Below the pieces are notes generated by a model. It was not told the origin of the DNA and did no database searches. It was given only the letters and a program-made list of their open reading frames with translations. The position numbers and the translations under genes were made by a program. Positions 1 to 44,390 of a DNA stretch of 52,042 nucleotides are shown here, one piece after another. The stretch's first letter is position 1, and every line of letters begins with the position of its first letter. This DNA comes from a virus. Taxonomy: Duplodnaviria > Caudoviricetes. The DNA lies in the IMG/VR virus record IMGVR_UViG_3300021475_000019, positions 1 to 52,042 of that record; one strand, given 5' to 3'.

Positions 1-70
1 CGCGCAGTTCATCAAGGAACTCGACCAGAAGGTCGAAAGGCTCTCGCGCCGCTACGCGGTGGCGGCGTGA
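1..70 (+). CDS. 3' end of YqaJ/lambda-exonuclease family gene (partial)
   Basis: Identical to the 3' end of 42663-43304 (...KVERLSRRYAVAA*). Confidence 0.85.
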   Translation, partial: AQFIKELDQKVERLSRRYAVAA

Positions 71-74
71 GGAC

Positions 75-400
75 GGCGGGCCAAGGCTCTGCGGGGTTTG
101 GCAATGCCTGGAACGGCTATGCTCGGCCATCCCCGGCGTGGCGCGGCATAGCAAGGCAAGGCTGGGCTGGGCGAGGCAGGGCGTGGAGCGGCACGGCGCG
201 GCTACGCAGCGCATGGCGGGGCCGGGCACGGCAAAGCGCGGCTACGCGCGGCGAGGCATCGCCATGCGCGGCATGGCTAGGCGCGGCGGGGCAGGGTCTG
301 GATCGGCAGCGCCATGCGCGGCTGGGCAGGGCTCAAGCTCGGCTAGGCAAGGCGGGGCATGGCTCGGCTCGGCTCGGTGGGGCCGTGCGCGGCGAGGCTT
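75..400 (+). repeat. GGC-NN pentamer array A1 (~65 units), putative guide RNA upstream of RAMP gene
   Basis: Parses as ggcgg gccaa ggctc tgcgg ggttt ggcaa ... ggcga ggctt in 5-nt phase, with one +1 slip near 335. Confidence 0.9.
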
Positions 401-428
401 AACAACGGCAACGAAAGGAAACGCGACA

Positions 429-1025
429 ATGTTCATCACGATTGAAATTCAGGGCATCACACCGCTGATCTGCAACAGGTTCACCGACGAGGCGGCGATG
501 GCCTCGACCAACGGCGACCGGGGCTCGTCGGCTGGGATGGATCGTGGCACGCCGCTGGAGATCGCGGCGTCGAAGCTCTACGTCGGCGTCGGCGGCAAGC
601 CGATGATCCCCTCGCCCAACTTGCTGCGGTCCATCGTCGACGGCGGCGCGCACACCAAACTTGGAAAAAAACAAGTTACGACGGCGCGTTCGTCGCTGCT
701 GTACGCCTGCCTGTCGATTGACGCGGCCGAGGTCGAGATTGTCAGCGAGCAATCGTGGAAGGTCGACACGCGCCCGGTTCGCATTCCCTCGACCGGCGGT
801 CGCATCCTTTGCCACCGGCCGATGTTCGATGATTGGAAGCTCGCGTTCGAGGTTGAACTCGACACGACAATTTTGAACGCGAAGCTCCTGCGGCAGATCG
901 TCGACGACGCGGGCAAGCGCGTCGGGTTGGGCGATTTCCGGCCGGTCTGCAAAGGGCCGTTCGGCAAGTACGTCGTCACGCGGTGGGCCGAGCAGCAGGC
1001 TCTGGCTCCGCGACTGGCGGCGTAA
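429..1025 (+). CDS. Cas7-like / RAMP-fold RNA-binding protein (Vipr-like), allele A, 198 aa
   Basis: N-terminal IEIQGITPLI strand, GKPMIPSPNLLRSI (RAMP P.IP.ss.lkg.l motif), RPMFDDWKLAFEVELD, and C-terminal G-rich loop GKRVGLGDFRP..KGPFGKY. RBS GAAAGGAA upstream. No other cas genes. Confidence 0.8.
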   Translation: MFITIEIQGITPLICNRFTDEAAMASTNGDRGSSAGMDRGTPLEIAASKLYVGVGGKPMIPSPNLLRSIVDGGAHTKLGKKQVTTARSSLLYACLSIDAAEVEIVSEQSWKVDTRPVRIPSTGGRILCHRPMFDDWKLAFEVELDTTILNAKLLRQIVDDAGKRVGLGDFRPVCKGPFGKYVVTRWAEQQALAPRLAA

Positions 1026-1032
1026 AGTTCCG

Positions 1033-1183
1033 GGCGTGGCGCGGCGCGGCGTGGTCTGGCTTGGCGAGGCGAGGCCGCGTTCGGCAGGGCGTGGCCGGGC
1101 CGGGCGCGGCATTCCCCGGCGTGGCATGGCGAGGCATGGCGTGGGGCGCGGCTCATGGGGTTCTCCCCCTCATGAGCCGCGCC
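1033..1183 (+). ncRNA. GGC-NN array A2 (22 units) with 3' hairpin, putative guide RNA
   Basis: 22 in-phase pentamers at 1033-1142, then stem ggcgcggctcatg/catgagccgcgcc (1145-1183). TAAAGT at 1023-1028 could be a -10 element. Confidence 0.75.
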
Positions 1184-1254
1184 AAACCCTCAACGTCGTG
1201 TGGCTTTGCCGCAAGCACCACCTCTACCTGCACGCGACGGGTCTGGCGGCATGA
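1184..1254 (+). pseudogene. Possible C-terminal remnant of an HNH endonuclease
   Basis: Reads TLNVVWLCRKHHLYLH, like the PL.V.WLC..cH...H tail of phage HNH proteins. No plausible N-terminus. Absent in copy B. Confidence 0.4.
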
Positions 1255-1745
1255 TGGCGTTCACCTGGAACGGCTCAAATATGACCCCGATGCGGCCCAA
1301 GGCCGCCGACAAGGCCTTCGTGATCGGCCAACGCTACTGGCTCGACGAGGTCAGCGAGCGGAGCTGGCATTCCCACCAGCAGCAGTTCGCCTGGATCGCC
1401 GAGGCGCACAACAACCTGCCCGACGCGCTCGCCGAGCTTTTTCCGACGAGCGAACATTTGCGCAAGGGCGCATTGATCGCGACCGGCTGGTTCCGCGAGA
1501 CGGTCGTCGATTGCGGGAGCCGGGCGGCGGCGGCGCGTGTGGCCGCCTACGCCAGGGGCGAGGATGAGTTCGCCAAGGTGACGGTGCGGGGCCCGACGGT
1601 GGTGGTGCAGAAGGCGCGCAGCCAGCGCATGCACGGCCTCGACCGGATGGACCGGGCCGAGTTCGAGCGCGCCAAGGCCGACATCCTGGGCTGGATCGCT
1701 AATCTGATCGGCGTCACGCCTGAGCGGCTCAGGGGGGCGGCGTGA
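1251..1745 (+). CDS. Phage protein, possibly NinB/DUF1367-like recombination accessory
   Basis: RS..SHQQQFAW and SQ...MDRAEFE motifs. Conserved in copy B (44453-44947). Lies in the recombination module. Confidence 0.55.
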   Translation: MMAFTWNGSNMTPMRPKAADKAFVIGQRYWLDEVSERSWHSHQQQFAWIAEAHNNLPDALAELFPTSEHLRKGALIATGWFRETVVDCGSRAAAARVAAYARGEDEFAKVTVRGPTVVVQKARSQRMHGLDRMDRAEFERAKADILGWIANLIGVTPERLRGAA

Positions 1746-2398
1746 GGGTCCTCGTCTCCTGCGAGTTCTCCGGCGTGGTGCGGCGCGCGTTTCGGGCGCG
1801 CGGGCATGACGCCTGGTCGTGCGACCTCCTGCCCGCCGAGGACGGCGACCCGCATCACATTCAGGGCGATGTGCGGCTCCTTCTCGACGAGCTGTGGGAC
1901 CTGGTGATCCACCACCCGCCCTGCACCTACCTCTCTGTTTCCGGCTACCACTGGAACTATCGGACGCCCGGCCGGATGGAGAAAACCGTCGCGGCGATTG
2001 AGTTCGCCGAAGTCCTGTGGAGCTGCAAAGCAAAAAAGGTCTGCCTCGAAAACCCGGTCGGCGTCCTGTCCACCCAGAGCCGACTGGGCAAGCCGACGCA
2101 GGTCGTCCAGCCATGGCAATTTGGCCACAACGCATCAAAGGCGACCTGCCTGTGGCTGCGCGGCCTTGCGCCGCTCCTGCCCACCAGAGTGATCGAGGGC
2201 CGCCTCGTCACGCTGCCCAATGGCAAAACGGCGCGGCGCTGGGCGAACCAGACCGACAGCGGGCAGAACCGGCTCCCGCCATCCGAACATCGCGCCATGA
2301 ACCGGAGCCGAACCTATAAAGGCCTGGCTGAGGCGATGGCGGCGCGCTGGAGCGACACGCTGACGTGGACGCAGGGCGAGCTGGAGCTGGCGGCATGA
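1742..2398 (+). CDS. DNA cytosine-5 methyltransferase-like protein (short phage type)
   Basis: VLVSCEFSG (SAM-binding variant), HPPC catalytic motif, ENP motif, QPWQFGH...K.T.LW. Confidence 0.8.
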   Translation: MRVLVSCEFSGVVRRAFRARGHDAWSCDLLPAEDGDPHHIQGDVRLLLDELWDLVIHHPPCTYLSVSGYHWNYRTPGRMEKTVAAIEFAEVLWSCKAKKVCLENPVGVLSTQSRLGKPTQVVQPWQFGHNASKATCLWLRGLAPLLPTRVIEGRLVTLPNGKTARRWANQTDSGQNRLPPSEHRAMNRSRTYKGLAEAMAARWSDTLTWTQGELELAA

Positions 2399-2712
2399 AG
2401 CCGGTGAATTGTCCTCGTTGCGGGGCGGCTCTCTTGCTTTGCGATGCGACAGCCGCCCCGCGTGCGCCCAAGCCGTGGGCCGACGACACGCGGATCAACG
2501 ACCTCCCCGTTAGCGCTCGCGCCAAGCACATCGTGAATGACGGCAAGTGGGACAGCGACGCCAAGGCTTGGGTGCGGACGAACCGGTTCCTCACGGCAGG
2601 CGATGTAGACGCGGCCAGCGACGACGAGCTTCTTTGCCTTACGAACTTCGGCAAAGTTTCCCTGAAGGAACTTAGAGAGGCGATCAAAACCCTCAAAGAG
2701 CAGACGACATGA
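2395..2712 (+). CDS. Zn-ribbon + RNA polymerase alpha C-terminal domain-like protein
   Basis: CPRC, then INDLPVSARAKH...GDV...SDDELLCLTNFGKVSLKELREAI, matching the alpha-CTD pattern (L.lsvRa.n.L...eLl...NfG.kSl.EI). Confidence 0.75.
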   Translation: MKPVNCPRCGAALLLCDATAAPRAPKPWADDTRINDLPVSARAKHIVNDGKWDSDAKAWVRTNRFLTAGDVDAASDDELLCLTNFGKVSLKELREAIKTLKEQTT

Positions 2713-3446
2713 GGACGCTCGCTTGGTTCTCCTGCGGCGCGGCGTCGGCGGTCGCCGCCAAGCTCACGGCCGAGGCCGAGCCCGTCTATTGCGAGACGGG
2801 GGCCGAACATCCCGACAACGAGCGTTTTCTCGCCGACTGCGAGCGATGGTTCGGGCGCAAGGTGACGCGCCTCAAGTCCGACAAATACGCGGACACTTGG
2901 GACGTGTGGACCAAGCGCCGCTATCTCGCGGGCGTGCAAGGCGCGCTTTGCACCGTGGAGTTGAAGGCCGCGCCGCGCATTGCCTTCCAGAGGCCAGACG
3001 ATATCCACATCCTGGGCTACACCGCCGACGCGGCCGACGTGACGAGAGCGAACCGGCTGCGCGAGACTTATCCAGAGCAGGTGTTCCTGACGCCGCTGAT
3101 CGAGCGCGGCATCCTGAAGGAGCATTGCCTCGACATGGTTCGGCGGGCGGGCATCGCGCTGCCGCCGCTGTATGCGCTGGGCTTCCGCAACAACAATTGC
3201 ATGCCGTGCGTCAAGGCGCAGTCGCCGAATTATTGGGCCCTGGTGCGACGCGAGTTTCCGGCCGAGTTCGAACGCTTGGCGCGCCTGTCGCGTGAGGTAG
3301 GCGCGAAGCTCTGCAAGATCGGCGACGGCCCCAACGAGCGCAAACGCATCTTCATCGACGAGGTCCCGCTCGACCAGCCGGTGAGCGATCCGATCCAGCC
3401 GTCGTGCGACTTTCTCTGCCACCTCGCCGAGCAGGATTTGACATGA
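2709..3446 (+). CDS. PAPS-reductase-like / PP-loop adenine nucleotide alpha-hydrolase protein, allele A
   Basis: N-terminal WFSCGAASA PP-loop, EHPDNERF, CTVELK, NNNCMPCVK and a C-terminal CDFLC cysteine cluster. Confidence 0.7.
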   Translation: MRTLAWFSCGAASAVAAKLTAEAEPVYCETGAEHPDNERFLADCERWFGRKVTRLKSDKYADTWDVWTKRRYLAGVQGALCTVELKAAPRIAFQRPDDIHILGYTADAADVTRANRLRETYPEQVFLTPLIERGILKEHCLDMVRRAGIALPPLYALGFRNNNCMPCVKAQSPNYWALVRREFPAEFERLARLSREVGAKLCKIGDGPNERKRIFIDEVPLDQPVSDPIQPSCDFLCHLAEQDLT

Positions 3447-3793
3447 TCCGCATCTCGTTCTCGGCGGCCAGCAAGCGCGCCATCGAGCGCCGCGCGACCG
3501 ACATGACCGGCCGGAAGTGGTGCGAGCAGTGCGGCGCCGAATGCCCGACGCGGGCCGACTATGAAATCGATCATTGCGTGGCCGAGGGCGCGCTCGCGGC
3601 CAACGACAACCGCCCCCCGCTCACCGCCGAGGACGGCAAGCTGTTGTGCTTGAGCTGCCACGACAAGAAAACGAGGCGCGACGTGCGCGAGATCTCCAAG
3701 ACCAAACGCCTGGAGGGCAAGCACCGGCCCATCGACGGCGGGCCGTCAGAGATCGCCCGGCGCTACCGCATCCCCCAGGAGCCTCACAGATGA
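3443..3793 (+). CDS. HNH endonuclease, allele A
   Basis: CEQC ... YEIDH ... LLCLSCHDKKT. Confidence 0.8.
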   Translation: MIRISFSAASKRAIERRATDMTGRKWCEQCGAECPTRADYEIDHCVAEGALAANDNRPPLTAEDGKLLCLSCHDKKTRRDVREISKTKRLEGKHRPIDGGPSEIARRYRIPQEPHR

Positions 3794-3797
3794 CCAA

Positions 3798-3862
3798 GGC
3801 GGGGCCTGGCAAGGCCATGCGAGGTCCGGCCAGGCCGGGCTGGGCATGGAGAGGCGCGGCAA
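3798..3862 (+). repeat. GGC-NN mini-array (13 units), strain A only
   Basis: ggcgg ggcct ggcaa ggcca tgcga ggtcc ggcca ggccg ggctg ggcat ggaga ggcgc ggcaa. Absent at the equivalent site 46225. Confidence 0.8.
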
Positions 3863-3867
3863 GGGCA

Positions 3868-4194
3868 ATGGCGGCCATTCTATTGGCCGTCATTGCAACG
3901 CCGGTCGAGGCGCACTGTTATTCGGTCTGGCATTACCCGTGGGCCCAACAGTGCGGCGTGGCGCGCAATTTCGGACAGAAGCGAGTTTCTGTCCGCCACG
4001 AAGCCCCCTTCGTGGCGCATGTTGCGCTGCACAAATTAATCGTTGCGCCCCCCCGTAACGATTTCGCGCCCGACCGTAACGATTTCGAAATCCCCCTTCC
4101 CAGCCTCGCCAGGGCCGATCTCGACGGCGGCGCGGCAGATGAGCCCACCCGTGGCCGGATCCTGCTGCGCGCCGCCCTGGAGGCCGCCAGATGA
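3868..4194 (+). CDS. Small secreted hypothetical protein
   Basis: Signal-peptide-like N-terminus then HCYSVWHYPWAQQC. Homologue at 46225-46524. An in-frame ATG at 3790 would include the array. Confidence 0.6.
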   Translation: MAAILLAVIATPVEAHCYSVWHYPWAQQCGVARNFGQKRVSVRHEAPFVAHVALHKLIVAPPRNDFAPDRNDFEIPLPSLARADLDGGAADEPTRGRILLRAALEAAR

Positions 4195-4400
4195 CCAAAA
4201 AAGCCCACGGGCCCCGGCAGGTCTACTTCCAGCGTCTCATCCGCGCTTGCAGGAAGGAGGGCGTGAAGCACGTAGAATACCACAGCGACGGCGGGACTAT
4301 TGTAATCCCATTGGACGACGCCTATTTGCAAAACCATGGCCCCGCGCCATCTCCCGCACCGGATGTCGAAGTGAGGGAAAAACCAAAAGCACGCTGGTAA
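4191..4400 (+). CDS. Small protein upstream of integrase (possible excisionase-like)
   Basis: 69-aa ORF directly before int. Homologue at 46514-46723 has the same C-terminus (EVREKPKARW). Confidence 0.5.
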   Translation: MTKKAHGPRQVYFQRLIRACRKEGVKHVEYHSDGGTIVIPLDDAYLQNHGPAPSPAPDVEVREKPKARW

Positions 4401-4410
4401 GGGAAATATT

Positions 4411-5457
4411 ATGCCGAAACGTAGAGAAAAAGGGCTTCTTCGCGAGAAGAACCGCCATGACAAATTTGTCTGGTACTACCGCGAAGGCCATGGGCCGCGC
4501 ACCCGCATTCCCGGCGAATTTGGCTCGCCGGAATTTAACGCCGCGCTGGCCGCCGCCAAGGGGTACGGCGCCGGGATCGTCGCCGCGCCCGGCAAAGGCC
4601 TATCGCATCGGGACAGCGGCTCGCTCGCTTGGCTCGTCGATCAGTTCCAGTCCTCGTCGGCCTGGGCCGCGACGAAGCCCGCGACGCAGAAGCAGCGCCG
4701 CAACATCCTCGCCCACGTCGTCAAGGAGAACGGCTCCTACGCCGTGCGCGACCTCGACAGCGGCTGGGTTGTGGACCTCCAAGAGCTGGCCGCCGAAAAT
4801 GGCAAGACCGCCCAGGCCAACGCCGTCGTCAAGGTCCTGCGTTGCCTCTTCGACTGGGCGACGCCGAAGCATATTCCGATCAACATCGCGAAGGCCGTCG
4901 AGCTGATCAAGCGCGACGGGCGCGTCGGCTTCCATTCGTGGACCGAGCTGGAGCTGGAGAAGTTCGAGGCCTTCTACCCGCTCGGCACGCGCGAGCGGCT
5001 CGCCTACTCGGTCCTGCTCTGGACCGGCCAGCGGCGCGGCGACGCCGTCAAGTTCGGCAAGCAGCATGTCCTGCGCAACGGACGGTTGTTCCTGCGCCAG
5101 GGCAAGACCGGCAATCCCGTGACGATCCCGATCCTGCCTGAGCTGGCCGAGGCGCTCGCCGCCGGTCCCGTGGGCGACCTCTGCTGGATCGTCGGCGACA
5201 AGGGCAACCCGCTCACGGCCGACACGTTCACGGGTTGGTTCCGCCAAGTCTGCAACAAGGCAGGCCTGCCGGAGTGCAGCGCGCACGGCCTGCGCAAGGC
5301 GGCGGCCCGCCGGTTCGCCTTGGCTGGCGCAACCTTGGACGAGCTGAAGGCTTGGTTTGGTTGGACTGAGAACCGGACGCCCGGCATCTACACCCGCGAC
5401 GCCGACGCCTCGCAGCTCGCCGACAACGCGGCGCGCAGGATGACCAAGGCGGCGTGA
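4411..5457 (+). CDS. int: Tyrosine recombinase / phage integrase, allele A
   Basis: Catalytic R (TGQRRGD), K (QGKTG), HGLR, W (FGWT) and Y (GIYTR). Confidence 0.93.
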   Translation: MPKRREKGLLREKNRHDKFVWYYREGHGPRTRIPGEFGSPEFNAALAAAKGYGAGIVAAPGKGLSHRDSGSLAWLVDQFQSSSAWAATKPATQKQRRNILAHVVKENGSYAVRDLDSGWVVDLQELAAENGKTAQANAVVKVLRCLFDWATPKHIPINIAKAVELIKRDGRVGFHSWTELELEKFEAFYPLGTRERLAYSVLLWTGQRRGDAVKFGKQHVLRNGRLFLRQGKTGNPVTIPILPELAEALAAGPVGDLCWIVGDKGNPLTADTFTGWFRQVCNKAGLPECSAHGLRKAAARRFALAGATLDELKAWFGWTENRTPGIYTRDADASQLADNAARRMTKAA

Positions 5458-5481
5458 AGACGTTTTGGAAAGGAAACGACA

Positions 5482-5688
5482 ATGTTTGACCTCACCTTGA
5501 AAACGCCGCTCCTCCTTGACTGCGGCGAAAATATCGAAACTACGCTCGCGTCATTCTTCGACGCCAACAATGCGATGGACGAAGACGAGCGCGAGGCCAT
5601 AATGACCGCGCTCGAAACTCATGGCGAATACAGTAATGGCGGCGGCGCGGCGGCAGAGTGGACGCTCCGCATCCTCAACCCAGCATGA
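5482..5688 (+). CDS. Hypothetical protein (strain A only)
   Basis: 68-aa ORF with RBS GAAAGGAA. Absent from copy B. Confidence 0.55.
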   Translation: MFDLTLKTPLLLDCGENIETTLASFFDANNAMDEDEREAIMTALETHGEYSNGGGAAAEWTLRILNPA

Positions 5689-5692
5689 ACCG

Positions 5693-5722
5693 AAAAGGGG
5701 CCCCGCAGGGCCCCTTTTTTTT
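5693..5722. terminator. Bidirectional intrinsic terminator
   Basis: aaaaggggccc-cgca-gggccccttttttttt between convergent genes. Confidence 0.85.
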
Positions 5723-6285
5723 TAGAGCGCGTAGCGCGGGCTCTTGCGCCTCATGCCCGCAAAGGCCATCGCCGCCGCGCCGATCAGCAGCATCGCCCAG
5801 GTCGAGGGCTCCGGCGTCGACAGCGCGGTGATCGTGCCGTCAACGGCGATGTGGATCGGCGAGCCGCCGCTCACACCCGACAGCTCCGCGAAGTAAGACC
5901 CGGCAGTCAGCACATCGGGCGATACTGTAGCCTCCTGGCCGCCAAGCACGTTGTTGAGCGCCGAGCTTTCGATCAGCGCGCCCAAGGGCTGGAAGGGCGA
6001 TACAGGCGCGCTGGAAGTAAAATCATTGAGCGAAAGCACGCCGCCGACAATCCTCCCGATGCCGGATGCGCTGTCGCTCATCGACACGGTGACCGTCTCA
6101 GTGACCGGCAGCGTGAACTCGAAAAACTCCGAGAACGCGATGCCGCTGCCGGGCGTGTCCTGGGCGGGCAGCGCGAGGCTCTGGTTCAGGATCGCGCCGA
6201 TATCCTCGACGGTGATCTGGGCGGCGTGGGCAGGCGTAGCGCCGACAGCGAGCGCGAGCGCCCCGGCGAGTAGGATGGCTTTCAT
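5722..6285 (-). CDS. PEP-CTERM (PEPxxWA) sorting-domain secreted protein, allele A
   Basis: Signal peptide MKAILLAGALALAVGATPAHA, and C-terminal TPEPSTWAMLLIG + TM helix + basic RRK tail. Confidence 0.9.
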   Translation of the reverse strand: MKAILLAGALALAVGATPAHAAQITVEDIGAILNQSLALPAQDTPGSGIAFSEFFEFTLPVTETVTVSMSDSASGIGRIVGGVLSLNDFTSSAPVSPFQPLGALIESSALNNVLGGQEATVSPDVLTAGSYFAELSGVSGGSPIHIAVDGTITALSTPEPSTWAMLLIGAAAMAFAGMRRKSPRYAL

Positions 6286-6349
6286 TATGGATGATCCCCG
6301 GTTCTAAACGATAGCCAGGATTTACCATGTTCGTGCGACAAATGCGCGA

Positions 6350-6550
6350 ATTTTATTCCCGCACCGGATTTGGGTGCGGGATTTTATCCTCGGAAAGCCG
6401 CAGATTTGCTGGGGTCAGGCCCCCACATCGCATTCCGACGCGAAACTCTGGACTGTAGGAAAACCGGGCGTCTCCGAGGAAGTGCGGGATTTTAGGTCCC
6501 GTTGAACCCCTTTAGGTAATTTTCTGCCAGTCCCGCACCTTTTGGCCCAG
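6350..6550. other. Putative attP region with repeated TCCCGCAC/GTGCGGGA sites
   Basis: Motif at 6357, 6374, 6482 and 6531 in alternating orientation. Non-coding, near int, conserved in copy B (48450-48650). Confidence 0.5.
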
Positions 6551-6647
6551 AGGGGCAGATCTTTGGCCCACACTGACAATGGCGCTACGGGCGCGGCGCG
6601 TTATATGATGGCCCAGAGACATCATGTCCGCTGGTAGGGAAACTGCA

Positions 6648-7284
6648 GTGACCGAACTGCCTGACAATATCGACCTGCAATGGATCGGCCGCCAGATCAT
6701 CGCGCTGCAACGCGAAACACGCGGCCTGCGCGACGATATCGGCGTTATGGCCGCCATCCTGCGCCGGGTCGAGAACAATCAAACAGCAGACCGTGACGAA
6801 TGGCGCGGCCTTTTCGACGCCATTCGTCATGTCCGAGGTCGCGTCGAAACTTTGGAAGGCAAATGATGACCGCGCACTGGCCCACCGACAAGGTCCCCGG
6901 CGCGAACCGGGGGCTGACCGAAGCCGAGGCCGCGCTCCTGGCGCAGCTCCAGCGCCGCCCCCACACCCTCAACAAACGCGAGCGCGATCTCCTGATCAAG
7001 CTTGAACGAAAGGTAAAATGATGCACATCGCCATTGGCGCCGCCATCCTCATCCTCGGCGTCCTCTTCCTCGTCACATCCAAGGCGGGGCTCAAAGTCCT
7101 GGGCGTTCTCGGCGTTCTCGTCGTCGGTGGCGTCTATCTCACCTTGAACGGCTACGTCGATGGCGCGGTACAAGCCCTTGACCGACAAGACCGTAGCGCA
7201 AGGCAACAGGCGTGCGCGGCGAAGGCGGCCAAGGTCGAACATACGGGGCGGGCGTTCGAGGACTTCGATCCCCAGTGCCACTGA
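6648..7284 (+). CDS. Three small hypothetical ORFs (6648-6866 coiled-coil, 6863-7021, 7018-7284 membrane)
   Basis: Overlapping ATGA junctions. Hydrophobic segments in the last ORF. Confidence 0.55.
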
Positions 7285-7288
7285 ACCG

Positions 7289-8128
7289 CTACTGCCCTGG
7301 GATCCACTGATCCCAGGGCCCGCCCTGCTGCCGCATCGACGACGCGCCGCCCAGAATAAGGTTCTGGATCGCCTGCCGCGTTGGGGCCGAGCTGGCCACG
7401 TGATGAACCAGCTCCCCGGCCTTCTCGCCCACCTTGTCGAGCCCCGCCCACAGGCCGAGCAGGCCCGCGCCTTCCTTAACGACATCGCCTCCGGCCCATC
7501 CCCCAAATAGCTTGTGAGCGCCGTAAGTGATCCCCGCCTTGAGGCCCTCGTCGGTGAGCTTCGGCAGGACTTTCGGAGCGGCGCGGGCGACGCCCTGACC
7601 GAGCAGGCCCGCGATGCCGCCTCCGGCAGTGTCCTGGGTAATGGTCGACCAGGGGTTCCCAGCCGCGTAGCTCTTCAGCCCCTCATGCACGCCCCCCGCG
7701 AGTTCAGGCCCCACGTAGGGGACCGCGTTGAGCAGCGTCGTCGGGCTCAGGATGTTGCCCACGAAATCCGCGCTCGTCGCCGCCTCAGGGCTGAGGCGCG
7801 CTCTGGCGGCGGCATAGTTGGCGGGGTTCTGCGCCATAGCTTCGTTGCCAGCGATGTCGCCGAAATCCTGCACCGATTGCGGAACCGTCAGCGCCGGGCC
7901 GCCTTTGTACCACGGGTTGCTCCAGTCGATGCCCCAGCCGCTGGGCGAGGCGGCAGCGGCGTTGGGATCAGCGGGTGCGGGTGCGGGTGCTGCTGCAACG
8001 GGCTTCGCGCCCGTCGGATTGAAGTCGCTGAATGCGCCGCCAGCAGGCTGCTTCGGCTGCGGCGCTGCCACGGGTTGGTCTTTCTGCTTCGCGCCCGTGG
8101 GGTCGAAGTCGTCGAATGCGCCTGCCAT
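7289..8128 (-). CDS. Putative virion/ejection protein, allele A
   Basis: Last gene of the late operon, Ala/Gly-rich. Homologue at 49912-50778. Confidence 0.6.
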   Translation of the reverse strand: MAGAFDDFDPTGAKQKDQPVAAPQPKQPAGGAFSDFNPTGAKPVAAAPAPAPADPNAAAASPSGWGIDWSNPWYKGGPALTVPQSVQDFGDIAGNEAMAQNPANYAAARARLSPEAATSADFVGNILSPTTLLNAVPYVGPELAGGVHEGLKSYAAGNPWSTITQDTAGGGIAGLLGQGVARAAPKVLPKLTDEGLKAGITYGAHKLFGGWAGGDVVKEGAGLLGLWAGLDKVGEKAGELVHHVASSAPTRQAIQNLILGGASSMRQQGGPWDQWIPGQ

Positions 8129-8131
8129 CGG

Positions 8132-9589
8132 TCACTCCAAGGCGGAAGTGTCGTAGCCCTTATCCTTCAGATGCTTGAGCGCGGAGCGCGGCCCGTAGTG
8201 TTCCACGGCGTTCTGGAAATCGAGCTTGTCTTGCTCCGTCAGTTGCTTGAGGTCCTTGTTCGGCTGGACCGACTTCCCAATGGGGCCGCCAGGATCAAGG
8301 TCGCCGCCCGACTGATACATCGGATCAAGGTAGGGCTTGAGATAGCCGGGTATGTCGGAGAGCCTGCCAGCCGCGCCATAGGCGTTGGCTTGGGCGGTGA
8401 GCGCGAGCTTGATCTTCGGCGCGATGACCTCCTCGCGATAATTGCCGATGCCAAAGTTGGTATAGTCCTCAGGGTTCGCACCCAAAGTTGCGAGGTTCTG
8501 GCCAACGCCCTTGGGGCCGCCGCGCGCCGACAAGACCTTCGCCGTGCCAGCCAGCCCCTCCATCTTGCTGTGCAGATTGTAGGCCTCCGTTCCAGGGGCC
8601 AATCCTTCGAGCCAGCCCTTGCCAACGGCCTTCGCTGACCCGGTGATCTCGTCGAGTTTGGGCGAGTTCGAGACGTCGGCGAGATCGTCGACGAACTTGC
8701 CCAGGCCTTGGTTCATGCCGTTGAACTGACCTTTCGCGTCGGTCAGGTCCTTGTTGTACAGGCTCCACTTCGTCGGGTCGGTCAGATAGCCGGGCATTGG
8801 CCTGCCCTTGTTGGCCGGATCGTTCTGCCATTGCGTTCGGGCGAACGCCATTGACTTCATGTCGCCGGTCATCCCCGGCAGGCCGCCCGTAATTATCATC
8901 GGCAAATAGTTGTTTTTCCAGTCCTCCTCCGAGCCGCCGCCCTTGATGAACTGGTCATGCTCGAACTGGATGTTCCGCTGCGTGTCGGTCGGCTCCATCT
9001 TTGAGATGAGGTCGGGGCCTTTACCGGCGAGGATCATGTCGCGCGAGGTGCCCGGCGGCAGGCCGAGCTTCGTGTCGTAGTCGGAGGCGTGGGCAAGCAT
9101 ATCCTGCGTCGCGCCCTGCTGCTGCATCGCGGTGTGCAGGCTCATCAGGTTGCCGACCGTCTGGCCCGCATCTTCGCCGCCGCCGGTCAGGCTCTGCATG
9201 ATCGACTGGCGCATCGAGGGCGGGCTGTGGTTGGCGGCGATCAGCGCAAGCCCGCTATTGATCCCCTGCATCGCCCGGTCGCGCTGCTGCATCTGCATGT
9301 ACAGCGACATGATGTTCGGCGGGTTGGCGAGCGTCTGGTAGCTCGCCGACATGTCGGGCGTCGACTGGAGCGCCTGCGGCTGCGGCGGCGAGTTGGGCGG
9401 CGGTGGAGCGCCTGGCGCTGGGTTGGGCGGGGGCGCGTTGGGATCGGCGCTCACCGGCTGCGCGTTCGGTGCTGGCGCGTTCGGGTTCTGCGGCGGCGCT
9501 CCTGGCGGCTGCTGCCCAGAGAGCATCGCCGCGAGCTGCCGCGCCGGGTCGGGGGCGCCCAGGTACAACAAATCGGCTAGACCGGCCAT
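8132..9589 (-). CDS. Putative DNA ejection (internal virion) protein
   Basis: 485-aa Q/G/P-rich helical protein in the ejection-gene position. Conserved in copy B. Confidence 0.6.
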   Translation of the reverse strand: MAGLADLLYLGAPDPARQLAAMLSGQQPPGAPPQNPNAPAPNAQPVSADPNAPPPNPAPGAPPPPNSPPQPQALQSTPDMSASYQTLANPPNIMSLYMQMQQRDRAMQGINSGLALIAANHSPPSMRQSIMQSLTGGGEDAGQTVGNLMSLHTAMQQQGATQDMLAHASDYDTKLGLPPGTSRDMILAGKGPDLISKMEPTDTQRNIQFEHDQFIKGGGSEEDWKNNYLPMIITGGLPGMTGDMKSMAFARTQWQNDPANKGRPMPGYLTDPTKWSLYNKDLTDAKGQFNGMNQGLGKFVDDLADVSNSPKLDEITGSAKAVGKGWLEGLAPGTEAYNLHSKMEGLAGTAKVLSARGGPKGVGQNLATLGANPEDYTNFGIGNYREEVIAPKIKLALTAQANAYGAAGRLSDIPGYLKPYLDPMYQSGGDLDPGGPIGKSVQPNKDLKQLTEQDKLDFQNAVEHYGPRSALKHLKDKGYDTSALE

Positions 9590-9744
9590 TTCCGTTCTCT
9601 TAAGTTAGCCCTGCGCTCCGCAAGGCGGTGCTCGGCGGTGCTGGGTCCGGCAAAGCTAGGCAGCGCAGGGCTCGGCGCGGCATTGCCCGGCGGCGCATCG
9701 CCCGGCAAGGCAAGGGGGGGCCGAGCCCACAAGGTTCGGCCCTC
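9578..9744 (+). ncRNA. Stand-alone GGC-NN cassette 1 (promoter, 19 units, hairpin)
   Basis: TAGACC-17-TAAGTT (9578-9606), units 9619-9713, hairpin gggccgagcc-cacaa-ggttcggccc (9718-9742). Confidence 0.75.
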
Positions 9745-9745
9745 T

Positions 9746-13518: not shown

Positions 13519-14007
13519 TTAGAGTTCCTTCACGTAGAGTTGGTTCCTCGACCTCAGTCGCCAGCCGAGGCGGCGGTAGCTGCCCTCGCGCAGCCAACCG
13601 AGCCGCCCATAAGTCGAGAGCAACCCGGCGTTGACCTCGTCGGCGTAGGCCAAGATTTTGGCGTGCAGCGCATCGACATCGGTGAGGTCGCCGACGTAGG
13701 CGATAAGCTCCAATTGCCGCGCGCGTGGAAAGTCCGCAATCTTCGTGATCGCCCAACTGTTGCCCTCGACGAACGACTGCATCCGCCCTTCAGCGATGGC
13801 GGTGAGGATGTCCGACAAGATGTACGTTCCGCCCATTCTATCGAGTAGACGGCTCAATTTTCGGTGGTAGGATGCCGTGTCGCTGCATTGCGGCGGCGAG
13901 GCATGGCTCGGCCTGCCTGGGCTACGCAGGGCTGGGCCTTGCTTGGCGCGGCTTGGCATAGCGAGGGAGGCGGCTTCGGCCGCCTCTATCTTTTCGGGGC
14001 GGTTCAT
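13519..14007 (-). CDS. Phage virion-module protein (GNAT-like fold possible); N-terminal part overlaps an antisense array
   Basis: ATGA coupling with the upstream gene at 14004-14007. Conserved-looking core WAITKIADFPR...GRLGW. Alternative start at 13836. Confidence 0.6.
   Translation of the reverse strand: MNRPEKIEAAEAASLAMPSRAKQGPALRSPGRPSHASPPQCSDTASYHRKLSRLLDRMGGTYILSDILTAIAEGRMQSFVEGNSWAITKIADFPRARQLELIAYVGDLTDVDALHAKILAYADEVNAGLLSTYGRLGWLREGSYRRLGWRLRSRNQLYVKEL
13846..13986 (+). ncRNA. Stand-alone GGC-NN cassette 2 (promoter, 14 units, UUCG hairpin)
   Basis: TAGACG-16-TAGGAT (13846-13873), units 13895-13964, gaggcggc-ttcg-gccgcctc (13967-13986). Confidence 0.75.
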
Positions 14008-19986: not shown

Positions 19987-20106
19987 TAAGCTGCCCTCCT
20001 CCGCAAGGCACGGCTGAGCATTGCTAGGCTAGGCACTCCCTGGCGTGGCGGCGCACGGCGAGGCGGGGCAACGGGGGCGGCTCTGCATTTGCACGCAGAG
20101 CCGCCC
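19964..20106 (+). ncRNA. Stand-alone GGC-NN cassette 3 (promoter, 14 units, hairpin)
   Basis: TTGAGG-17-TAAGCT (19964-19992), units 20002-20071, 12-bp stem gggcggctctgc/gcagagccgccc (20075-20106). Confidence 0.75.
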
Positions 20107-20137
20107 TTAAAGCACGTCCGTGGGAGGACAGACGCGC

Positions 20138-21302: not shown

Positions 21303-21601
21303 CAGACGCGCCCGTTGTAGACGGCGAAGGCGCGGCCCTCGCCGTTGTACCATTTGCGCCAGTCGCCTTCGTCCCACCCCTCGCGACAGGCGCGCTCGTA
21401 GATAATCGCGGGGACATGATGCGTGAACTTCATGTCCCCGTTGTTGGCCATGATCTCACGGTCGCGCGCCACCGCGTCGAGGATCGGCTCCAGGTCCTGT
21501 TCAGTCAGGATGTGGAACGGACCATCGGGATCGCCATCGTCCCAGATCAAGGTCCTCCTGATCCCGTGGCTGTCGCGGTAGACGCGCTTTCGCTCAGACA
21601 T
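21302..21601 (-). CDS. Conserved phage protein downstream of capsid
   Basis: 99-aa ORF (QDLEPILD...VPAIIYE...W). Confidence 0.65.
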   Translation of the reverse strand: MSERKRVYRDSHGIRRTLIWDDGDPDGPFHILTEQDLEPILDAVARDREIMANNGDMKFTHHVPAIIYERACREGWDEGDWRKWYNGEGRAFAVYNGRV

Positions 21602-21723
21602 TAGGTTGGCCTCGCGCAACGCGAGCCATGGCATGGCAGGGCAGGGCTGGGCCGAGCAAAGCGCGGCCTGGCAATGCAAGGCGAGGCTGGCAAGGCGTGG
21701 GGCGGCGGCCAGTAGGCCGCCGC
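21579..21723 (+). ncRNA. Stand-alone GGC-NN cassette 4 (promoter, 17 units, hairpin)
   Basis: TAGACG-17-TAGGTT (21579-21607), units 21615-21698 (one 4-nt unit), gcggcggcc-agta-ggccgccgc (21702-21723). Confidence 0.75.
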
Positions 21724-21739
21724 TTCTGCTTGCTTAAGC

Positions 21740-28919: not shown

Positions 28920-28953
28920 TGGGAAAACCTCCTTGGGGAGGCCTTCGGGCTTA

Positions 28954-32873: not shown

Positions 32874-33084
32874 CGGACCCCTCCCCGCCGCACTCGCCTC
32901 CCCCTGTTAACATCCCGCGCCCGGCGGCCTCATTAGGCAATAGGTATTTCTACCTATGCTCACACCCCCCGCAAGCCCGCAAAGGCCCGGCGTTGTGGGC
33001 TTTTGCGCTCATTTGTGCCGATGGACCATACGGCGCCCCCGGCACATTTACGCCCGCTGGGCCCTCCTACATAATTGATGCATC

Positions 33085-33240: not shown

Positions 33241-33294
33241 CCGACAAAAAAAGACTGGAGCCTCCCGACGGTATGGCGAAAAGATGGCGGCGGG

Positions 33295-33609: not shown

Positions 33610-33611
33610 TT

Positions 33612-34280: not shown

Positions 34281-34281
34281 A

Positions 34282-40818: not shown

Positions 40819-41270
40819 GCGGCGATATCCTTGCCTTGCTTTGCCGCGCCATGCCGGGCATGGCCTCGCCCGGCGCCGCCTAGCCGTGCAACGCCGCTCG
40901 TAGCCGGGCAATGCACCGCCTGGACCTGCCTCCTCACAACATTCCAGTCCTCAAGCACGCGGATTGGTTCGTCGCGGCCCCGGCACACCGCGTAAGTGAC
41001 GCCTGCGCGGATCAGCGCGAGCTTGAACGCCTTCTGGTTGGGGGAGAGCCTGCCGCTTTCCGTCTTCAGCTCGATAAAGGCGGCGCCGAGTTTGGGGGCG
41101 ATGACGAGGAGGTCGAAGAGGCCCCTGGTGAGCCCTGCTTGCCCTGCCGCCCGTGCATTTGGGATGGCGGCGACCAGGGTGTCGGGGAGGCCAAATGTGC
41201 GCCAATGCGTCACCACAGCCTGCTGGATCAGGCTTTCGCGCGGCGCAAATATCTTTCGTTTCCGCGCCAT
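40815..41270 (-). CDS. VRR-NUC domain nuclease
   Basis: ESLIQ...IPN...G...G.FDL....FIELKT..GRLS..Q. The C-terminal extension is encoded by the pentamer array. Confidence 0.85.
   Translation of the reverse strand: MARKRKIFAPRESLIQQAVVTHWRTFGLPDTLVAAIPNARAAGQAGLTRGLFDLLVIAPKLGAAFIELKTESGRLSPNQKAFKLALIRAGVTYAVCRGRDEPIRVLEDWNVVRRQVQAVHCPATSGVARLGGAGRGHARHGAAKQGKDIAA
40831..40930 (-). repeat. GGC-NN array (20 units) on the minus strand
   Basis: Reverse complement reads ggcag gtcca ggcgg tgcat tgccc ggcta ... ggcaa agcaa ggcaa. Confidence 0.8.
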
Positions 41271-43308: not shown

Positions 43309-43503
43309 GGCGGGCCAAGGCTCTGCGGGGTTTGGCAATGCCTGGAACGGCTATGCTCGGCGAGGCATCGCAAGGCGCGGCTTGGCGAGGCGGGTCGGGG
43401 CAGTCCCCGGCTCGGCAGCGCCATGCGCGGCCGGGCAGAGCGCGGCATGGCTAGGCGCGGCGTAGCAGGGACCGGCGCAGCATGGTGCTGCGAGGCGAGG
43501 TTT
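43309..43503 (+). repeat. GGC-NN pentamer array B1 (39 units)
   Basis: Perfect 5-nt phase. First 10 units equal A1; the rest differ. Confidence 0.9.
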
Positions 43504-43522: not shown

Positions 43523-44119
43523 ATGTTTATCACCATCGAAATTCAAGGCATCACTCCTCTGATCTGCAACCGTTTTACCGACGAGGCGGCGATGGCCTCG
43601 ACCAATGGCGACCGGGGCTCGTCGGCTGGGATGGATCGCGGCACGCCGCTGGAGATCGCAGCGTCGAAGCTCTACGTCGGCGCCGACGGCAAGCCGATGA
43701 TCCCGTCGCCCAACCTGCTGCGCTCCATCGTCGACGGCGGCGCGCACACCAAACTTGGAAAAAAACAAGTCACGACGGCGCGTTCGTCGCTGCTGTACGC
43801 CTGCCTGTCGATTGAGGCGGCCGAGGTCGAGATCATCAACGAGCAACCGTGGAAGGTTGACACGCGCCCGGTGCGCATCCCCTCGACCGGCGGTCGCATC
43901 CTCTGCCATCGGCCCATGTTCGATGATTGGAAGCTCGCGTTCGAGGTCGAACTCGACACGACAATTTTGAACGCGAAGCTCCTGCGGCAGATCGTCGATG
44001 ACGCGGGCAAGCGCGTCGGGCTGGGCGACTTCCGGCCGGTCTGCAAGGGGCCGTTCGGCAAGTACAACGTCGTGCGATGGGCCGAGCAGCAGGCCCAGCC
44101 GACGCGACTGGCGGCGTGA
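43523..44119 (+). CDS. Cas7-like / RAMP-fold protein (Vipr-like), allele B
   Basis: Same motifs as 429-1025, with about 11 aa differences out of 198 by manual comparison. Confidence 0.8.
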   Translation: MFITIEIQGITPLICNRFTDEAAMASTNGDRGSSAGMDRGTPLEIAASKLYVGADGKPMIPSPNLLRSIVDGGAHTKLGKKQVTTARSSLLYACLSIEAAEVEIINEQPWKVDTRPVRIPSTGGRILCHRPMFDDWKLAFEVELDTTILNAKLLRQIVDDAGKRVGLGDFRPVCKGPFGKYNVVRWAEQQAQPTRLAA

Positions 44120-44120: not shown

Positions 44121-44390
44121 GGCACGGCAAGGCTCTGCATGGCCCAGCGCGGAACGGCAGGGCAGGGCGAGGCCCGGCTCTGCGGGGCAAGGCAAGGCTA
44201 TGCGAGGCAGGGCAGGGCGGGGCCGGGCTAGGCGAGGCGTAGCGAGGCAGGGCACGGCGCGGACTGGCTAGGCGAGGCGAGGCAACGCGAGGCTAGGTTG
44301 GGCAACGCGGCGCGAGGCTAGGCTAGGCACGGCTGGGCAACGCGGCGCGAGGCGCGGCATGGCATGGCCCGGCGAGGCGGCGCAAGGCAA
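44121..44390 (+). repeat. GGC-NN pentamer array B2 (54 units)
   Basis: 270 nt in unbroken 5-nt phase starting 2 nt after the stop codon, ending cgcaa ggcaa gg. Confidence 0.92.

What the first reader, a model, noticed from the sequence alone, without database searches (positions are those of the whole stretch)
75..1183. Solo Cas7/RAMP-like gene sandwiched between GGC-NN pentamer arrays: a CRISPR-less candidate RNA-guided system
Seen: a 198-aa ORF with RAMP hallmarks (GITPL, P.IP.PNL, C-terminal GLGDFRP..GPFG G-loop), flanked by 65 and 22 tandem 5-nt units made of a near-constant triplet (mostly GGC; GGT, TGC, CGC, AGC tolerated) and a free dinucleotide. There is no repeat-spacer CRISPR array and no cas1/3/5/6/8/10. 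Established: Cas7-family RAMPs polymerise along guide RNA with a fixed per-subunit nucleotide period. Inference: each subunit grips a GGC and presents the NN, so the concatenated dinucleotides encode a non-contiguous target, probably for silencing competing phage/MGE or host genes. This resembles my recollection of phage 'VIPR' (GGY/NN) systems, which I cannot verify here.
Basis: partly seen in the sequence, partly recalled or inferred. Interest (0 to 1): 0.97.

Follow-up and report, generated by a model that had tools for sequence, protein, structure and literature searches.

The report
Phage VIPR system with scattered guides
This is a real copy of the recently published phage VIPR system, a small Cas7-like protein that reads five-base GGC-NN guide RNAs, and the phage also carries extra guide genes scattered through its genome, each next to the gene whose variants in rival sister phages it matches.

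Summary
ORF 429-1025 (198 aa) lies between 65 and 22 GGC-NN pentamer units. The window holds 10 tracts of at least 8 units, against about 0.2 expected.

The published "skip one base" code holds in this soil-phage clade. 246 guide-target matches score at least 16, against 2 and 11 under control rules. The skipped base is the codon wobble at 79 of 82 resolved sites.

Beyond the finding's coordinates there is a second, 94%-identical locus at 43309-44390, probably a strain haplotype. Six dispersed guide cassettes also exist. Where a target was found, its homologue in the guide's own phage lies within 500 nt in 39 of 41 cases.

This is a new member of a known kind. Other agents of this scan noted the linked guide-and-mismatched-allele layout on other phages. 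I did not see it in the three VIPR papers' main texts. No target was found for most of the two arrays flanking this gene.

The parts
1..69 (+). 3' end of the RecE/YqaJ-like exonuclease gene that precedes the VIPR locus (the complete copy is 42663-43304)
   Evidence: Window 1-127 is identical to 43235-43361. The complete copy hits phrog_149 exonuclease at 7.5e-40.
75..400 (+). Upstream vrRNA array T1: 65 GGC-NN units (52 + 13, with a 1-nt slip at 335), running into the vipr ribosome-binding region with no hairpin
   Evidence: It contains a 9-unit module (215-259) shared with L005, L006, L085 and L086.
429..1025 (+). vipr gene, 198-aa minimal RAMP (P0001)
   Evidence: PDB 36pp 'SUSP1 Vipr protein' at E 1.7e-5 for the single sequence and 2.9e-20 full length for the profile. 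phrog_4652 at 1.2e-19. Model pLDDT 93.3. Csm3/Cas7 fold.
1033..1142 (+). Downstream vrRNA array T2, 22 units
1145..1183 (+). 16-bp GC-rich hairpin directly after T2 (candidate vrRNA 3' tail or terminator)
   Evidence: -40.5 kcal/mol, z -3.98.
1251..1745 (+). Neighbour gene (phrog_15346, function unknown). It is a vap candidate only by position, and is itself matched by guides of relatives at 1335-1363.
3798..3862 (+). Dispersed tract T3 (13 units), 4 nt after the HNH gene stop, followed by hairpin 3865-3896. There is no counterpart in the second copy.
9578..9745 (+). Dispersed cassette T4: promoter-like TAGACC-17-TAAGTT (9578-9606), tract 9614-9728, hairpin 9715-9745. It lies divergent from gene 8132-9589 (-).
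13846..13987 (+). Dispersed cassette T5: promoter-like motif 13846-13873, tract 13895-13964, hairpin plus U-run 13966-13987. The guide at 13900-13954 matches L111 at 21/22.
19992..20108 (+). Dispersed cassette T6: tract 19992-20071 and hairpin 20073-20108. The guide at 20007-20056 matches L105 and L130 at 20/20, and the segment 20007-20051 matches six further loci at 18/18. The own allele at 19662-19692 matches 16/22.
21579..21726 (+). Dispersed cassette T7: promoter-like motif 21579-21607, tract 21615-21689, hairpin 21699-21726. The guide at 21630-21679 matches the 3' end of the capsid gene in 9 relatives at 19/20. The own allele at 21843-21871 matches 16/20.
40831..40930 (-). Tract T8 (20 units), the only minus-strand tract, lying in the 3' tail of the VRR-NUC ORF. 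The guide at 40851-40920 matches the homologous gene region of L006/L182 at 27/28, and L180, L188 and L194 at 26/28.
43309..43498 (+). Upstream array T9 of the second locus (38 units). Its first 10 units are identical to T1, then it differs.
43523..44119 (+). Second vipr gene, 94% identical to the first
44121..44390 (+). Downstream array T10 of the second locus (54 units). The segment 44326-44370 matches the first codons of the phrog_15346 gene of relatives (18/18 in L202; 16/16 in six loci).

Best explanation
The locus is a VIPR (Viral Interference Programmable Repeat) system carried by a ~43-kb temperate phage from soil. The 198-aa Vipr protein is a minimal Cas7-like RAMP.

By homology with the solved SUSP1 complex, Vipr should polymerise one protomer per pentamer along RNAs transcribed from the GGC-NN tracts. 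It should hide each GGC and expose each NN. The filament should then bind double-stranded DNA whose sequence reads NN-x-NN-x, and so block expression of that gene.

Shown here by computation:
- homology and fold of the protein;
- co-occurrence of the gene with tracts;
- the one-base-skip code;
- alignment of the skipped base with the codon wobble position;
- matches to genes of sibling phages (capsid, a virion protein, VRR-NUC nuclease, the gene after vipr, vipr itself) and not to the phage's own genome.

Inferred: expression and processing of the tracts, filament formation, silencing, and the biological role, which I take to be exclusion of closely related co-infecting or resident phages.

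The system extends beyond the two flanking arrays. Six further cassettes are spread over the genome. Each guide with an identified target lies within about 400 nt of the phage's own mismatched copy of that target. The simplest reading is that a guide is only safe when linked to an allele it does not match.
For: Protein:
- phmmer hit to PDB 36pp_D 'SUSP1 Vipr protein', E 1.7e-5.
- A 79-sequence profile hits the same chain over 1-184 of the profile and 1-188 of 202 residues, E 2.9e-20.
- SUSP1 contacts R138, D177, W178 and R179 (paper .720927, Results) align to R130, D169, F170 and R171. H17 aligns to N16 (alignments; conservation).
- AlphaFold model pLDDT 93.3, pTM 0.87.
- Foldseek top hits are Csm3 chains, E 1e-6, probability 1.00.

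Tracts:
- 60 of 84 homologous loci have at least 6 strict GGY units within 800 nt on the vipr strand. Minus-strand tracts occur in only 2 loci.
- Close relatives keep the scaffold but change the NN content.

Code (204 sequences, 2.25 Mb, 294 tracts, arrays masked):
- Hits scoring at least 16 under skip 0 / 1 / 2: 2 / 246 / 11.
- Hits scoring at least 18: 0 / 109 / 1.
- Hits scoring at least 20: 0 / 63 / 0.
- Unique guide segments: 2 / 59 / 6.
- Window guides alone: 38, 19 and 7 hits at thresholds 16, 18 and 20. 200 unit-order shuffles gave means of 0.21, 0 and 0.
- The skipped base is the wobble position at 79 of 82 phase-resolved unique sites; 35 sites were ambiguous.
- No self hit of at least 16/18 in the window under skip 0, 1 or 2.

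Context:
- Integrase, terminase, portal, capsid, tail fibre, endolysin, Erf and exonuclease genes are present.

Linkage:
- 39 of 41 unique guide segments, and 25 of 27 distinct tracts, lie within 500 nt of the own-locus homologue of their target. 12.7% is expected if placement were uniform.
- Mean NN match is 0.98 to the target and 0.80 to the own allele. The own allele is lower in 26 of 27.
Against: - No RNA data exist. No RNA run holds the sequence, so transcription, processing and RNP formation are untested.
- For T1, T2 and T9, and most of T10, no convincing target was found. These are the arrays in or equivalent to the finding's coordinates. The best hit is 20/22 for the leader-proximal units 75-129; the rest score 13-15, where the controls also give hits.
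- An exact IMG/VR scan with the conserved 9-unit module found nothing.
- The published vrRNA has 9-16 repeats and an invariant pseudoknot tail. Here the arrays run 22-65 units without internal tails. Hairpins follow only T2-T7 and differ in sequence.
- No conserved accessory (vap) gene was found. The downstream gene recurs in only 7 of 84 vipr loci with room for it and has no Pfam, PADLOC, NCBIfam or fold match.
- Own alleles still match the guide at 80% or more of NN positions in 16 of 27 tracts. 80% is the papers' own threshold for calling a target, so self-discrimination rests on 2-7 mismatches of untested effect. One relative's guide (L029) matches its own vipr gene 16/16.
- 24 of 84 homologous loci show no strict GGY tract beside the gene.
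Confidence: 0.9

Rival explanations
1. The dispersed cassettes are RNA-guided homing or marker-exclusion elements. Vipr-vrRNA binding (or cutting by an associated nuclease) at the sensitive allele of a co-infecting sibling provokes recombinational repair from the cassette-bearing genome. That would copy the cassette and its resistant allele into the rival, as free-standing homing endonucleases do in T-even phages (recalled knowledge).
For: The guide lies within 500 nt of its target's homologue in 39 of 41 cases. The own allele is mismatched. The cassettes are presence/absence polymorphisms: only 4 of 80 capsid-region relatives carry any tract, 2 of them at the T7 site. The insertions have clean boundaries. 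The phage encodes Erf and an exonuclease directly upstream of vipr, plus HNH and VRR-NUC nucleases.
Against: No nuclease is shown to work with Vipr. The characterised type II VIPRs silence and do not cut, according to the papers read. There is no extra local divergence at the guide-matched sites: identity to relatives is 0.73-0.78 there, against 0.74-0.85 across the same genes. Plain selection for linkage explains the adjacency equally well.
Confidence: 0.2
2. The dispersed tracts regulate the phage's own adjacent genes in cis (timing of late genes), and the better matches in relatives are incidental.
For: Own alleles retain 64-80% NN match to the four window guides tested, and a mean of 0.80 over 27 tracts. 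T4, T6 and T7 lie divergent from, or abut, the start of the adjacent gene.
Against: In 26 of 27 tracts the match to a relative is higher than to the own allele (0.98 against 0.80). A self-regulator should keep a perfect match to itself. No self hit reaches 16/18 in the window.
Confidence: 0.06
3. The pentamer tracts are coding or neutral simple-sequence DNA, for example a low-complexity N-terminal extension of the protein (ORF 138-1025 is open through T1), with no guide function.
For: Frames stay open through T1, T8 and T5 (first-reader note e1-6286081).
Against: Homologues are mostly 190-200 aa and align from residue 1. A 5-nt period with a fixed GGC and free NN is not a codon pattern. Skip-1 matches exceed every control. 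Tracts track vipr genes across 60 of 84 loci.
Confidence: 0.02

Closest known systems
VIPR systems (Vipr + vrRNA), type II of Escherichia phage SUSP1 and a Pseudomonas fulva prophage: bioRxiv 10.64898/2026.04.26.720920 and 10.64898/2026.04.26.720927 (Results, Discussion and several Methods sections read)
   Same: A homologous ~200-aa single-RRM RAMP with the GGY-contact residues conserved or conservatively replaced. GGY/NN pentamer tracts on both sides of the gene. One-base-skip code. Skipped base on the codon wobble position. Targets in competing phages, including other vipr genes. No self-targets. Phage-borne.
   Different: Only about 20% identity to SUSP1 Vipr is apparent in the aligned segment. 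Arrays are 22-65 units without internal tails, against 9-16 repeats with an invariant pseudoknot tail. The first G of the triplet is replaced in a quarter of units. No conserved vap gene. High-GC soil phage. I could not assign one of the seven types because the supplements were closed.
Solo/orphan vrRNAs of F5 satellites and VIPR-null SUSP1-like phages: bioRxiv 10.64898/2026.10.15.759431 (abstract, Results section on solo vrRNAs, one Methods section and term passages read)
   Same: vrRNA genes standing apart from a vipr gene. Some aim at relatives' vipr genes. Self-match scores are lower than non-self scores. About 90% are wobble-aligned.
   Different: There the solo vrRNAs sit at the former vipr locus of phages that lost vipr, or on satellites where they aim at host REP decoys. 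Here six cassettes are spread through the late and early regions of a phage that keeps vipr. Most are antisense to the virion operon, and each lies beside the phage's own copy of its target gene.
Class 1 CRISPR-Cas backbone subunits (Csm3, Cmr4, Cas7, Csf2)
   Different: No repeat-spacer array, no other cas genes, a 5-nt period instead of 6-nt, and a gapped guide instead of a contiguous one.
Free-standing homing endonucleases of T-even phages
   Same: A small cassette inserted between genes, polymorphic among relatives, aimed at a site a few hundred bases away in genomes that lack it, with a resistant sequence in its own genome.
   Different: The specificity element here is an RNA guide used by a trans-acting protein. 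Cutting and gene conversion are not shown.

Membership tests
VIPR system | Protein homologous to an experimentally characterised Vipr | tested here: met
   PDB 36pp_D SUSP1 Vipr: E 1.7e-5. Profile E 2.9e-20 over the full length. The second copy hits at E 1.4e-5.
VIPR system | Residues that grip GGY in SUSP1 (H17, R138, D177, W178, R179) | tested here: met
   They align to N16, R130, D169, F170 and R171. R130 and R171 are at least 90% conserved in 79 sequences. D169 is invariant among 16 closer sequences. H17 to N and W178 to F are substitutions of untested effect.
VIPR system | Tandem YNNGG (GGY/NN) repeats, at least 4 units, flanking vipr on its strand | tested here: met
   65 and 22 units here, 38 and 54 at the second copy. 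60 of 84 homologous loci carry them.
VIPR system | GGY conserved and NN hypervariable among close relatives | tested here: met
   Composition. Arrays of 9 close loci are compared.
VIPR system | Structured, conserved 3' tail after the repeat tract | tested here: inconclusive
   Strong hairpins directly follow T2-T7, but their sequences differ and they may be plain terminators. None follows T1, T8, T9 or T10. Pseudoknots were not tested.
VIPR system | Targets read with a one-nucleotide skip (xNN) | tested here: met
   Met for T5, T6, T7, T8 and parts of T10, and for relatives' guides against this window. Not shown for T1, T2, T3, T4 or T9.
VIPR system | Skipped base aligns with the codon wobble position | tested here: met
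   79 of 82 resolved unique target sites, with 35 ambiguous. Eight of nine sites in the window checked by hand against ORF frames.
VIPR system | No self-targeting on the source contig | tested here: met
   No window of 9 units with at least 16/18 matches under skip 0, 1 or 2. Caveat: homologous own alleles reach 64-80% NN match.
VIPR system | Adjacent vipr-accessory (vap) gene | tested here: inconclusive
   The downstream gene (phrog_15346) is found in 7 of 84 vipr loci with at least 1200 nt downstream. No family or fold match. The paper says 'typically', not always.
VIPR system | vrRNAs are expressed and co-purify with Vipr | not testable with these tools
   No RNA run was listed.
VIPR system | Assignment to one of types I-VII | not testable with these tools
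   The type definitions are in supplementary data (fig. S16, data S4), which were closed.
CRISPR-Cas (class 1) | Repeat-spacer array and further cas genes | tested here: not met
   No such array. Rfam gave 0 hits. No cas family among the ORFs scanned.
Homing / marker-exclusion cassette | Cassette lies next to the homologue of its target, with a resistant own allele | tested here: met
   39 of 41 within 500 nt, against 12.7% expected. The own allele is lower in 26 of 27.
Homing / marker-exclusion cassette | DNA break and biased inheritance or co-conversion of flanks | tested here: inconclusive
   No local excess divergence at guide-matched sites. Cleavage and inheritance need experiments.

The most novel reading that the evidence does not exclude
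vrRNA genes in this phage group behave as selfish, allele-linked cassettes. Each promoter-tract-hairpin unit sits beside an allele it does not match, and silences (or provokes conversion of) the matching allele in a co-infecting sibling. Individual genes, not only whole phages, would then compete through a shared Vipr protein. This would be an RNA-guided analogue of homing-endonuclease marker exclusion, and a possible route by which new guides spread.
Probability: 0.35. Interest if true: 0.78.

Novelty: new member of a known kind. Interest (0 to 1): 0.5.

Why it matters
The gene plus arrays in the finding are an ordinary example of a system published in 2026, so the locus itself is not a discovery.

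Its value is as independent, purely computational support that the one-base-skip, wobble-blind code holds in a distant clade. The host is a high-GC soil phage, and Vipr is only about 20% identical to SUSP1 Vipr in the aligned part.

It is also a clean natural data set:
- two haplotypes with a 94% identical protein and rewritten arrays;
- dozens of sibling phages carrying reciprocal guide-target pairs.

The linked layout of guides beside mismatched own alleles, if it holds experimentally, would say how such guides are kept safe. It might also say how they spread, a question the main texts of the three VIPR papers I read do not address.

Tried and rejected
Targets for the main arrays
- A sensitive scan of the window's tracts against the first 84 loci and the window gave only scores of 13-16 for T1, T2, T9 and T4. 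At those scores the skip-0 and skip-2 controls also give 1-3 hits. I do not count them.
- An exact IMG/VR scan with the conserved 9-unit module found 0 matches.

Expression
- No RNA holder was listed.

Haplotypes or tandem prophages
- Laying contigs of four coded soil runs on 33000-52042 gave only short unitigs (under 1 kb) with many loose ends. The question stayed open.
- The k-mer argument rests: the first 127 nt recur exactly at 43235, and the last 99 nt recur at 9270.

vap candidate
- Model pLDDT 74.4. Foldseek gave no match at E of 0.001 or better. No Pfam, PADLOC or NCBIfam family.

Local divergence at guide-matched sites
- Not seen.

Promoter scan
- The generic sigma-70 scan found 0 sites in 1-4500.
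- The motif TAGACS-N16/17-TARGNT occurs 3 times in the window, each directly before T4, T5 or T7, with 0.02 expected. The pattern was written from those very sites, so the count is not an independent test.

Other checks
- Rfam found no ribozyme or other family. There are no tRNA genes.
- The phage collection holds no close relative: 6 records, each covering 1-2% of the query.
- The anchor gene 8132-9589 yielded only 1 locus.

Rows dropped
- Tracts with under 50% GGY units, or containing N, were left out of the guide sets.
- 35 of 117 target sites were phase-ambiguous.
- 18 of 59 guide segments, and 13 of 40 tracts, had no blastn-alignable own-locus homologue and do not enter the adjacency counts.

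Not seen
- Supplements of all three papers were closed. They may hold the type of this clade and any mention of dispersed or linked guides.
Full report
**Observation.** ORF 429-1025 on the plus strand gives a 198-aa protein (P0001) with the motifs GITPL, PMIPSPNL and GLGDFRP..GPFG. Read in register, 75-400 is 65 pentamers (52, a one-base slip at 335, then 13) and 1033-1142 is 22 pentamers. Over the 281 tract units of the window, position 1 is G in 74%, position 2 is G in 96%, position 3 is C in 93%, and positions 4-5 are close to uniform. The window holds 10 distinct tracts of at least 8 xGCNN units. These appear as 22 detections over both strands, because GC is its own complement and one tract is split by the slip. 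100 order-2 Markov simulations gave a mean of 0.38 detections, and no simulated tract exceeded 12 units. Tandem-repeat and direct-repeat scans show no CRISPR-type array. Rfam gives nothing at gathering score.

**What is known.** A full-text search found two April 2026 preprints, and a second search a third from October 2026. I read the Results, Discussion and several Methods sections of 10.64898/2026.04.26.720920. I read part 1 of 2 of the Results of 10.64898/2026.04.26.720927. Of 10.64898/2026.10.15.759431 I read the outline with abstract, one Results section, one Methods section and term passages. According to these, VIPR systems consist of a ~20-kDa ancestral RAMP (Vipr) and vrRNAs of 9-16 YNNGG repeats with a structured 3' tail. 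One protomer binds one repeat. GGY is sequestered and NN pairs with DNA, skipping every third target base. The skipped base usually falls on the codon wobble position. Natural targets are competing phages, satellites and other VIPR loci. Seven types exist, including ones with staggered arrays, ribozyme-interspersed arrays or a single vrRNA. Solo vrRNAs occur on satellites and on phages that lost vipr.

**Context.** The held 'genome' is this one 52,042-base record, and it is filed as a virus record. PHROG scans of 30 ORFs identify the following genes:
- early region: DNA methyltransferase, a PAPS-reductase-like protein, HNH endonuclease, integrase, Erf and an exonuclease;
- late region: endolysin, ejection protein, virion proteins, tail fibre, major head protein, scaffold, portal and large terminase.

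Vipr sits in the early region, right after erf-exo. Window 1-9368 is an 81-91% identical repeat of 43235-52042. It includes a second vipr gene (43523-44119, 94% identical protein) with its own arrays (43309-43498 and 44121-44390). The first 127 bases of the record recur exactly at 43235, but 128 do not, and the last 99 bases recur at 9270. This is what a de Bruijn assembler would produce when it walks round a ~43.2-kb circular or permuted genome and exits into a second strain. I therefore treat the two loci as probable haplotypes, not as two loci of one genome. Laying contigs of four soil metagenome runs gave only short unitigs and did not settle it. The second locus is identical to two independently held contigs, L007 and L087.

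**Co-occurrence.** I fetched 84 loci encoding relatives of 45-96% identity: 4 from genomes, among them Rhodomicrobiaceae and Paracoccaceae MAGs, and 80 from IMG/VR. Of these, 60 have at least 6 strict GGY units within 800 nt of the gene on its strand, with up to 120 units. 24 have none by this criterion, including a block of nine ~55% relatives. Minus-strand tracts occur in only two loci. Among the nine closest loci, the arrays occupy the same places and keep the GGC scaffold while the NN strings differ. A few modules are shared, such as window 215-259 and a '..GCAA GGCAA GGA' ending of the downstream arrays.

**The code.** I took every tract of at least 8 units with at least 50% GGY units, replaced each triplet by 0, 1 or 2 free bases, and searched all fetched DNA plus the window on both strands, with the arrays masked. 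Results on the final set of 204 sequences (2.25 Mb, 294 tracts, 6033 units):

| Score threshold | Skip 0 | Skip 1 | Skip 2 |
|---|---|---|---|
| at least 16 | 2 | 246 | 11 |
| at least 18 | 0 | 109 | 1 |
| at least 20 | 0 | 63 | 0 |

Collapsed to unique guide segments, the counts are 2, 59 and 6. For the window's 11 tract pieces alone, the hits number 38, 19 and 7 at thresholds 16, 18 and 20. 200 shuffles of unit order gave means of 0.21, 0 and 0, with maxima of 5, 0 and 0. The skipped base coincides with the high-GC third codon position at 79 of 82 unique target sites where the phase was clear; 35 sites were ambiguous. Within the window no guide matches any site at 16/18 or better under skip 0, 1 or 2. 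So the published rule holds in this clade.

**What the window's guides match.** All matches below are under the one-base-skip rule.

| Guide | Best matches | Source |
|---|---|---|
| T8, 40851-40920, minus strand, in the tail of the VRR-NUC ORF | 27/28 in L006/L182; 26/28 in L180, L188, L194; 21/22 in L005, L007, L181, L195 | |
| T6, 20007-20056 | 20/20 in L105 and L130; segment 20007-20051: 18/18 in six further loci | |
| T7, 21630-21679 | 19/20 in nine loci, inside the 3' end of the capsid gene | |
| T5, 13900-13954 | 21/22 in L111 | |
| T10, 44326-44370 | 18/18 in L202; 16/16 in six loci, at the first codons of the gene after vipr | |

Guides of relatives also match this window:
- L086 matches 1335-1363 at 20/20.
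- L096 matches the HNH gene at 3557-3585 and 45992-46020 at 20/20.
- L006/L203 match 8358-8398 and 51008-51048 at 26/28.
- L194 matches 7290-7315 and 49913-49938 at 18/18.
- L006 matches 40948-40970 at 16/16.

Elsewhere in the set, several guides fall inside other phages' vipr genes, as the papers report. For T1, T2, T3, T4 and T9 I found nothing convincing.

**Dispersed cassettes.** T3-T7 lie on the plus strand, and T4-T7 lie antisense to the virion operon. Each is followed at once by a strong GC-rich hairpin of 9-16 pairs, with free energies of -35 to -40 kcal/mol and z from -1.7 to -4.5. T5, T4 and T7 also have U-rich runs. T2 has such a hairpin too. T1, T9, T10 and T8 do not. T4, T5 and T7 are preceded by TAGACS-N16/17-TARGNT. 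Those are the only three occurrences in the window, with 0.02 expected, but the pattern is post hoc. T6 has TTGAGG-17-TAAGCT, read. Alignment with relatives shows the T7 cassette as a clean insertion shared with L100 and L114 and absent in L101 and L119. Only 4 of the 80 capsid-anchored relatives carry any tract.

**Linkage.** For each unique guide segment with a hit, I located the homologue of its target in the guide's own locus. 41 of 59 had one that blastn could align, and 39 of those lie within 500 nt of the guide (median 200 nt). 12.7% would be expected for uniform placement. At the level of distinct tracts the count is 25 of 27. One of the two exceptions is the window's own first guide, whose neighbouring gene is cut off by the record's start. 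The guide matches the sibling target at a mean of 0.98 of NN positions and the own allele at 0.80. The own allele is lower in 26 of 27, yet it still reaches 0.8 or more in 16 of 27. For the window the own-allele values are 14/22 (T5), 16/22 (T6), 16/20 (T7), and 13/16 and 11/16 (T10).

I read this as guides kept next to an allele they do not match, so that recombination between siblings cannot create a self-targeting genome. A stronger reading is that the cassettes spread by provoking conversion of the matched allele, like homing endonucleases. The data allow this but do not show it. The one test I could run, for extra divergence at guide-matched sites, was negative. Term searches for 'homing', 'adjacent', 'linkage', 'neighbor' and 'dispersed' in the 720920 and 759431 preprints found no description of this layout. 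The structure preprint (720927) was not term-searched, and the supplements were closed. Two earlier reports of this scan (e1-5745284, e1-5978943) describe the same layout on other phages. They are unchecked AI notes and not independent evidence, but I tested the claim here on this DNA.

**Verdict.** It is a new member of a known kind, with long tail-less flanking arrays, no conserved accessory gene, and a set of autonomous, allele-linked guide cassettes. Expression, assembly and silencing are inferred by homology only.

Noticed in passing
window 43309-44390: A second VIPR locus. The protein is 94% identical. The first 10 array units are identical to locus 1, and after that the NN strings and unit numbers differ (38 and 54 units against 65 and 22). 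It is identical to contigs L007 and L087.
   Followed up: yes
window 1-127 / 43235-43361 and 51944-52042 / 9270-9368: The record's ends repeat internal sequence exactly, for 127 and 99 bases. The record is probably one ~43.2-kb phage genome plus a second strain's version of a 9-kb early region, joined by the assembler.
   Followed up: partly
window 40815-41270 (-): The VRR-NUC ORF has no stop before tract T8. It reads through all 20 units to a TGA that overlaps the next gene's ATG, so the tract is formally a C-terminal extension.
   Followed up: partly
L178 5440-5745 and L188 6600-7300: In two relatives the exonuclease gene is followed by a short 10-14-unit tract, a hairpin and a different small gene. 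Its start (..GDTPLITHSWSEKA..) looks like a divergent RAMP N-terminus, suggesting that another Vipr lineage occupies the same site.
   Followed up: no
L185 6615-7175 and L186 2890-3450: Some relatives have the exonuclease and phrog_15346 genes only about 530 nt apart, with neither vipr nor pentamer tracts between them. The VIPR module is a replaceable cassette at this site.
   Followed up: no
L029 7920-7959: One relative's guide, just downstream of its vipr gene, matches its own vipr gene 16/16 as well as many other vipr genes. This could be autoregulation or a conserved-site guide.
   Followed up: no
window 5722-6285 (-): A 187-aa protein with a C-terminal PEP-CTERM motif (Pfam 3e-7) lies next to the integrase. 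It is present in both copies and may be a lysogenic-conversion gene.
   Followed up: no
window 3798-3862 vs 46229-46300: Tract T3 after the HNH gene exists only in the first copy. The tract scan finds nothing at the equivalent place of the second copy.
   Followed up: partly
window 28767-28865 and 8002-8122 / 50640-50772: There are three tandem 33-nt repeats inside ORF 28467-29009 (-), and a pair of 37-nt direct repeats 84-96 nt apart inside gene 7289-8128 (-) in both copies. They are unexplained and unrelated to the pentamer tracts.
   Followed up: no
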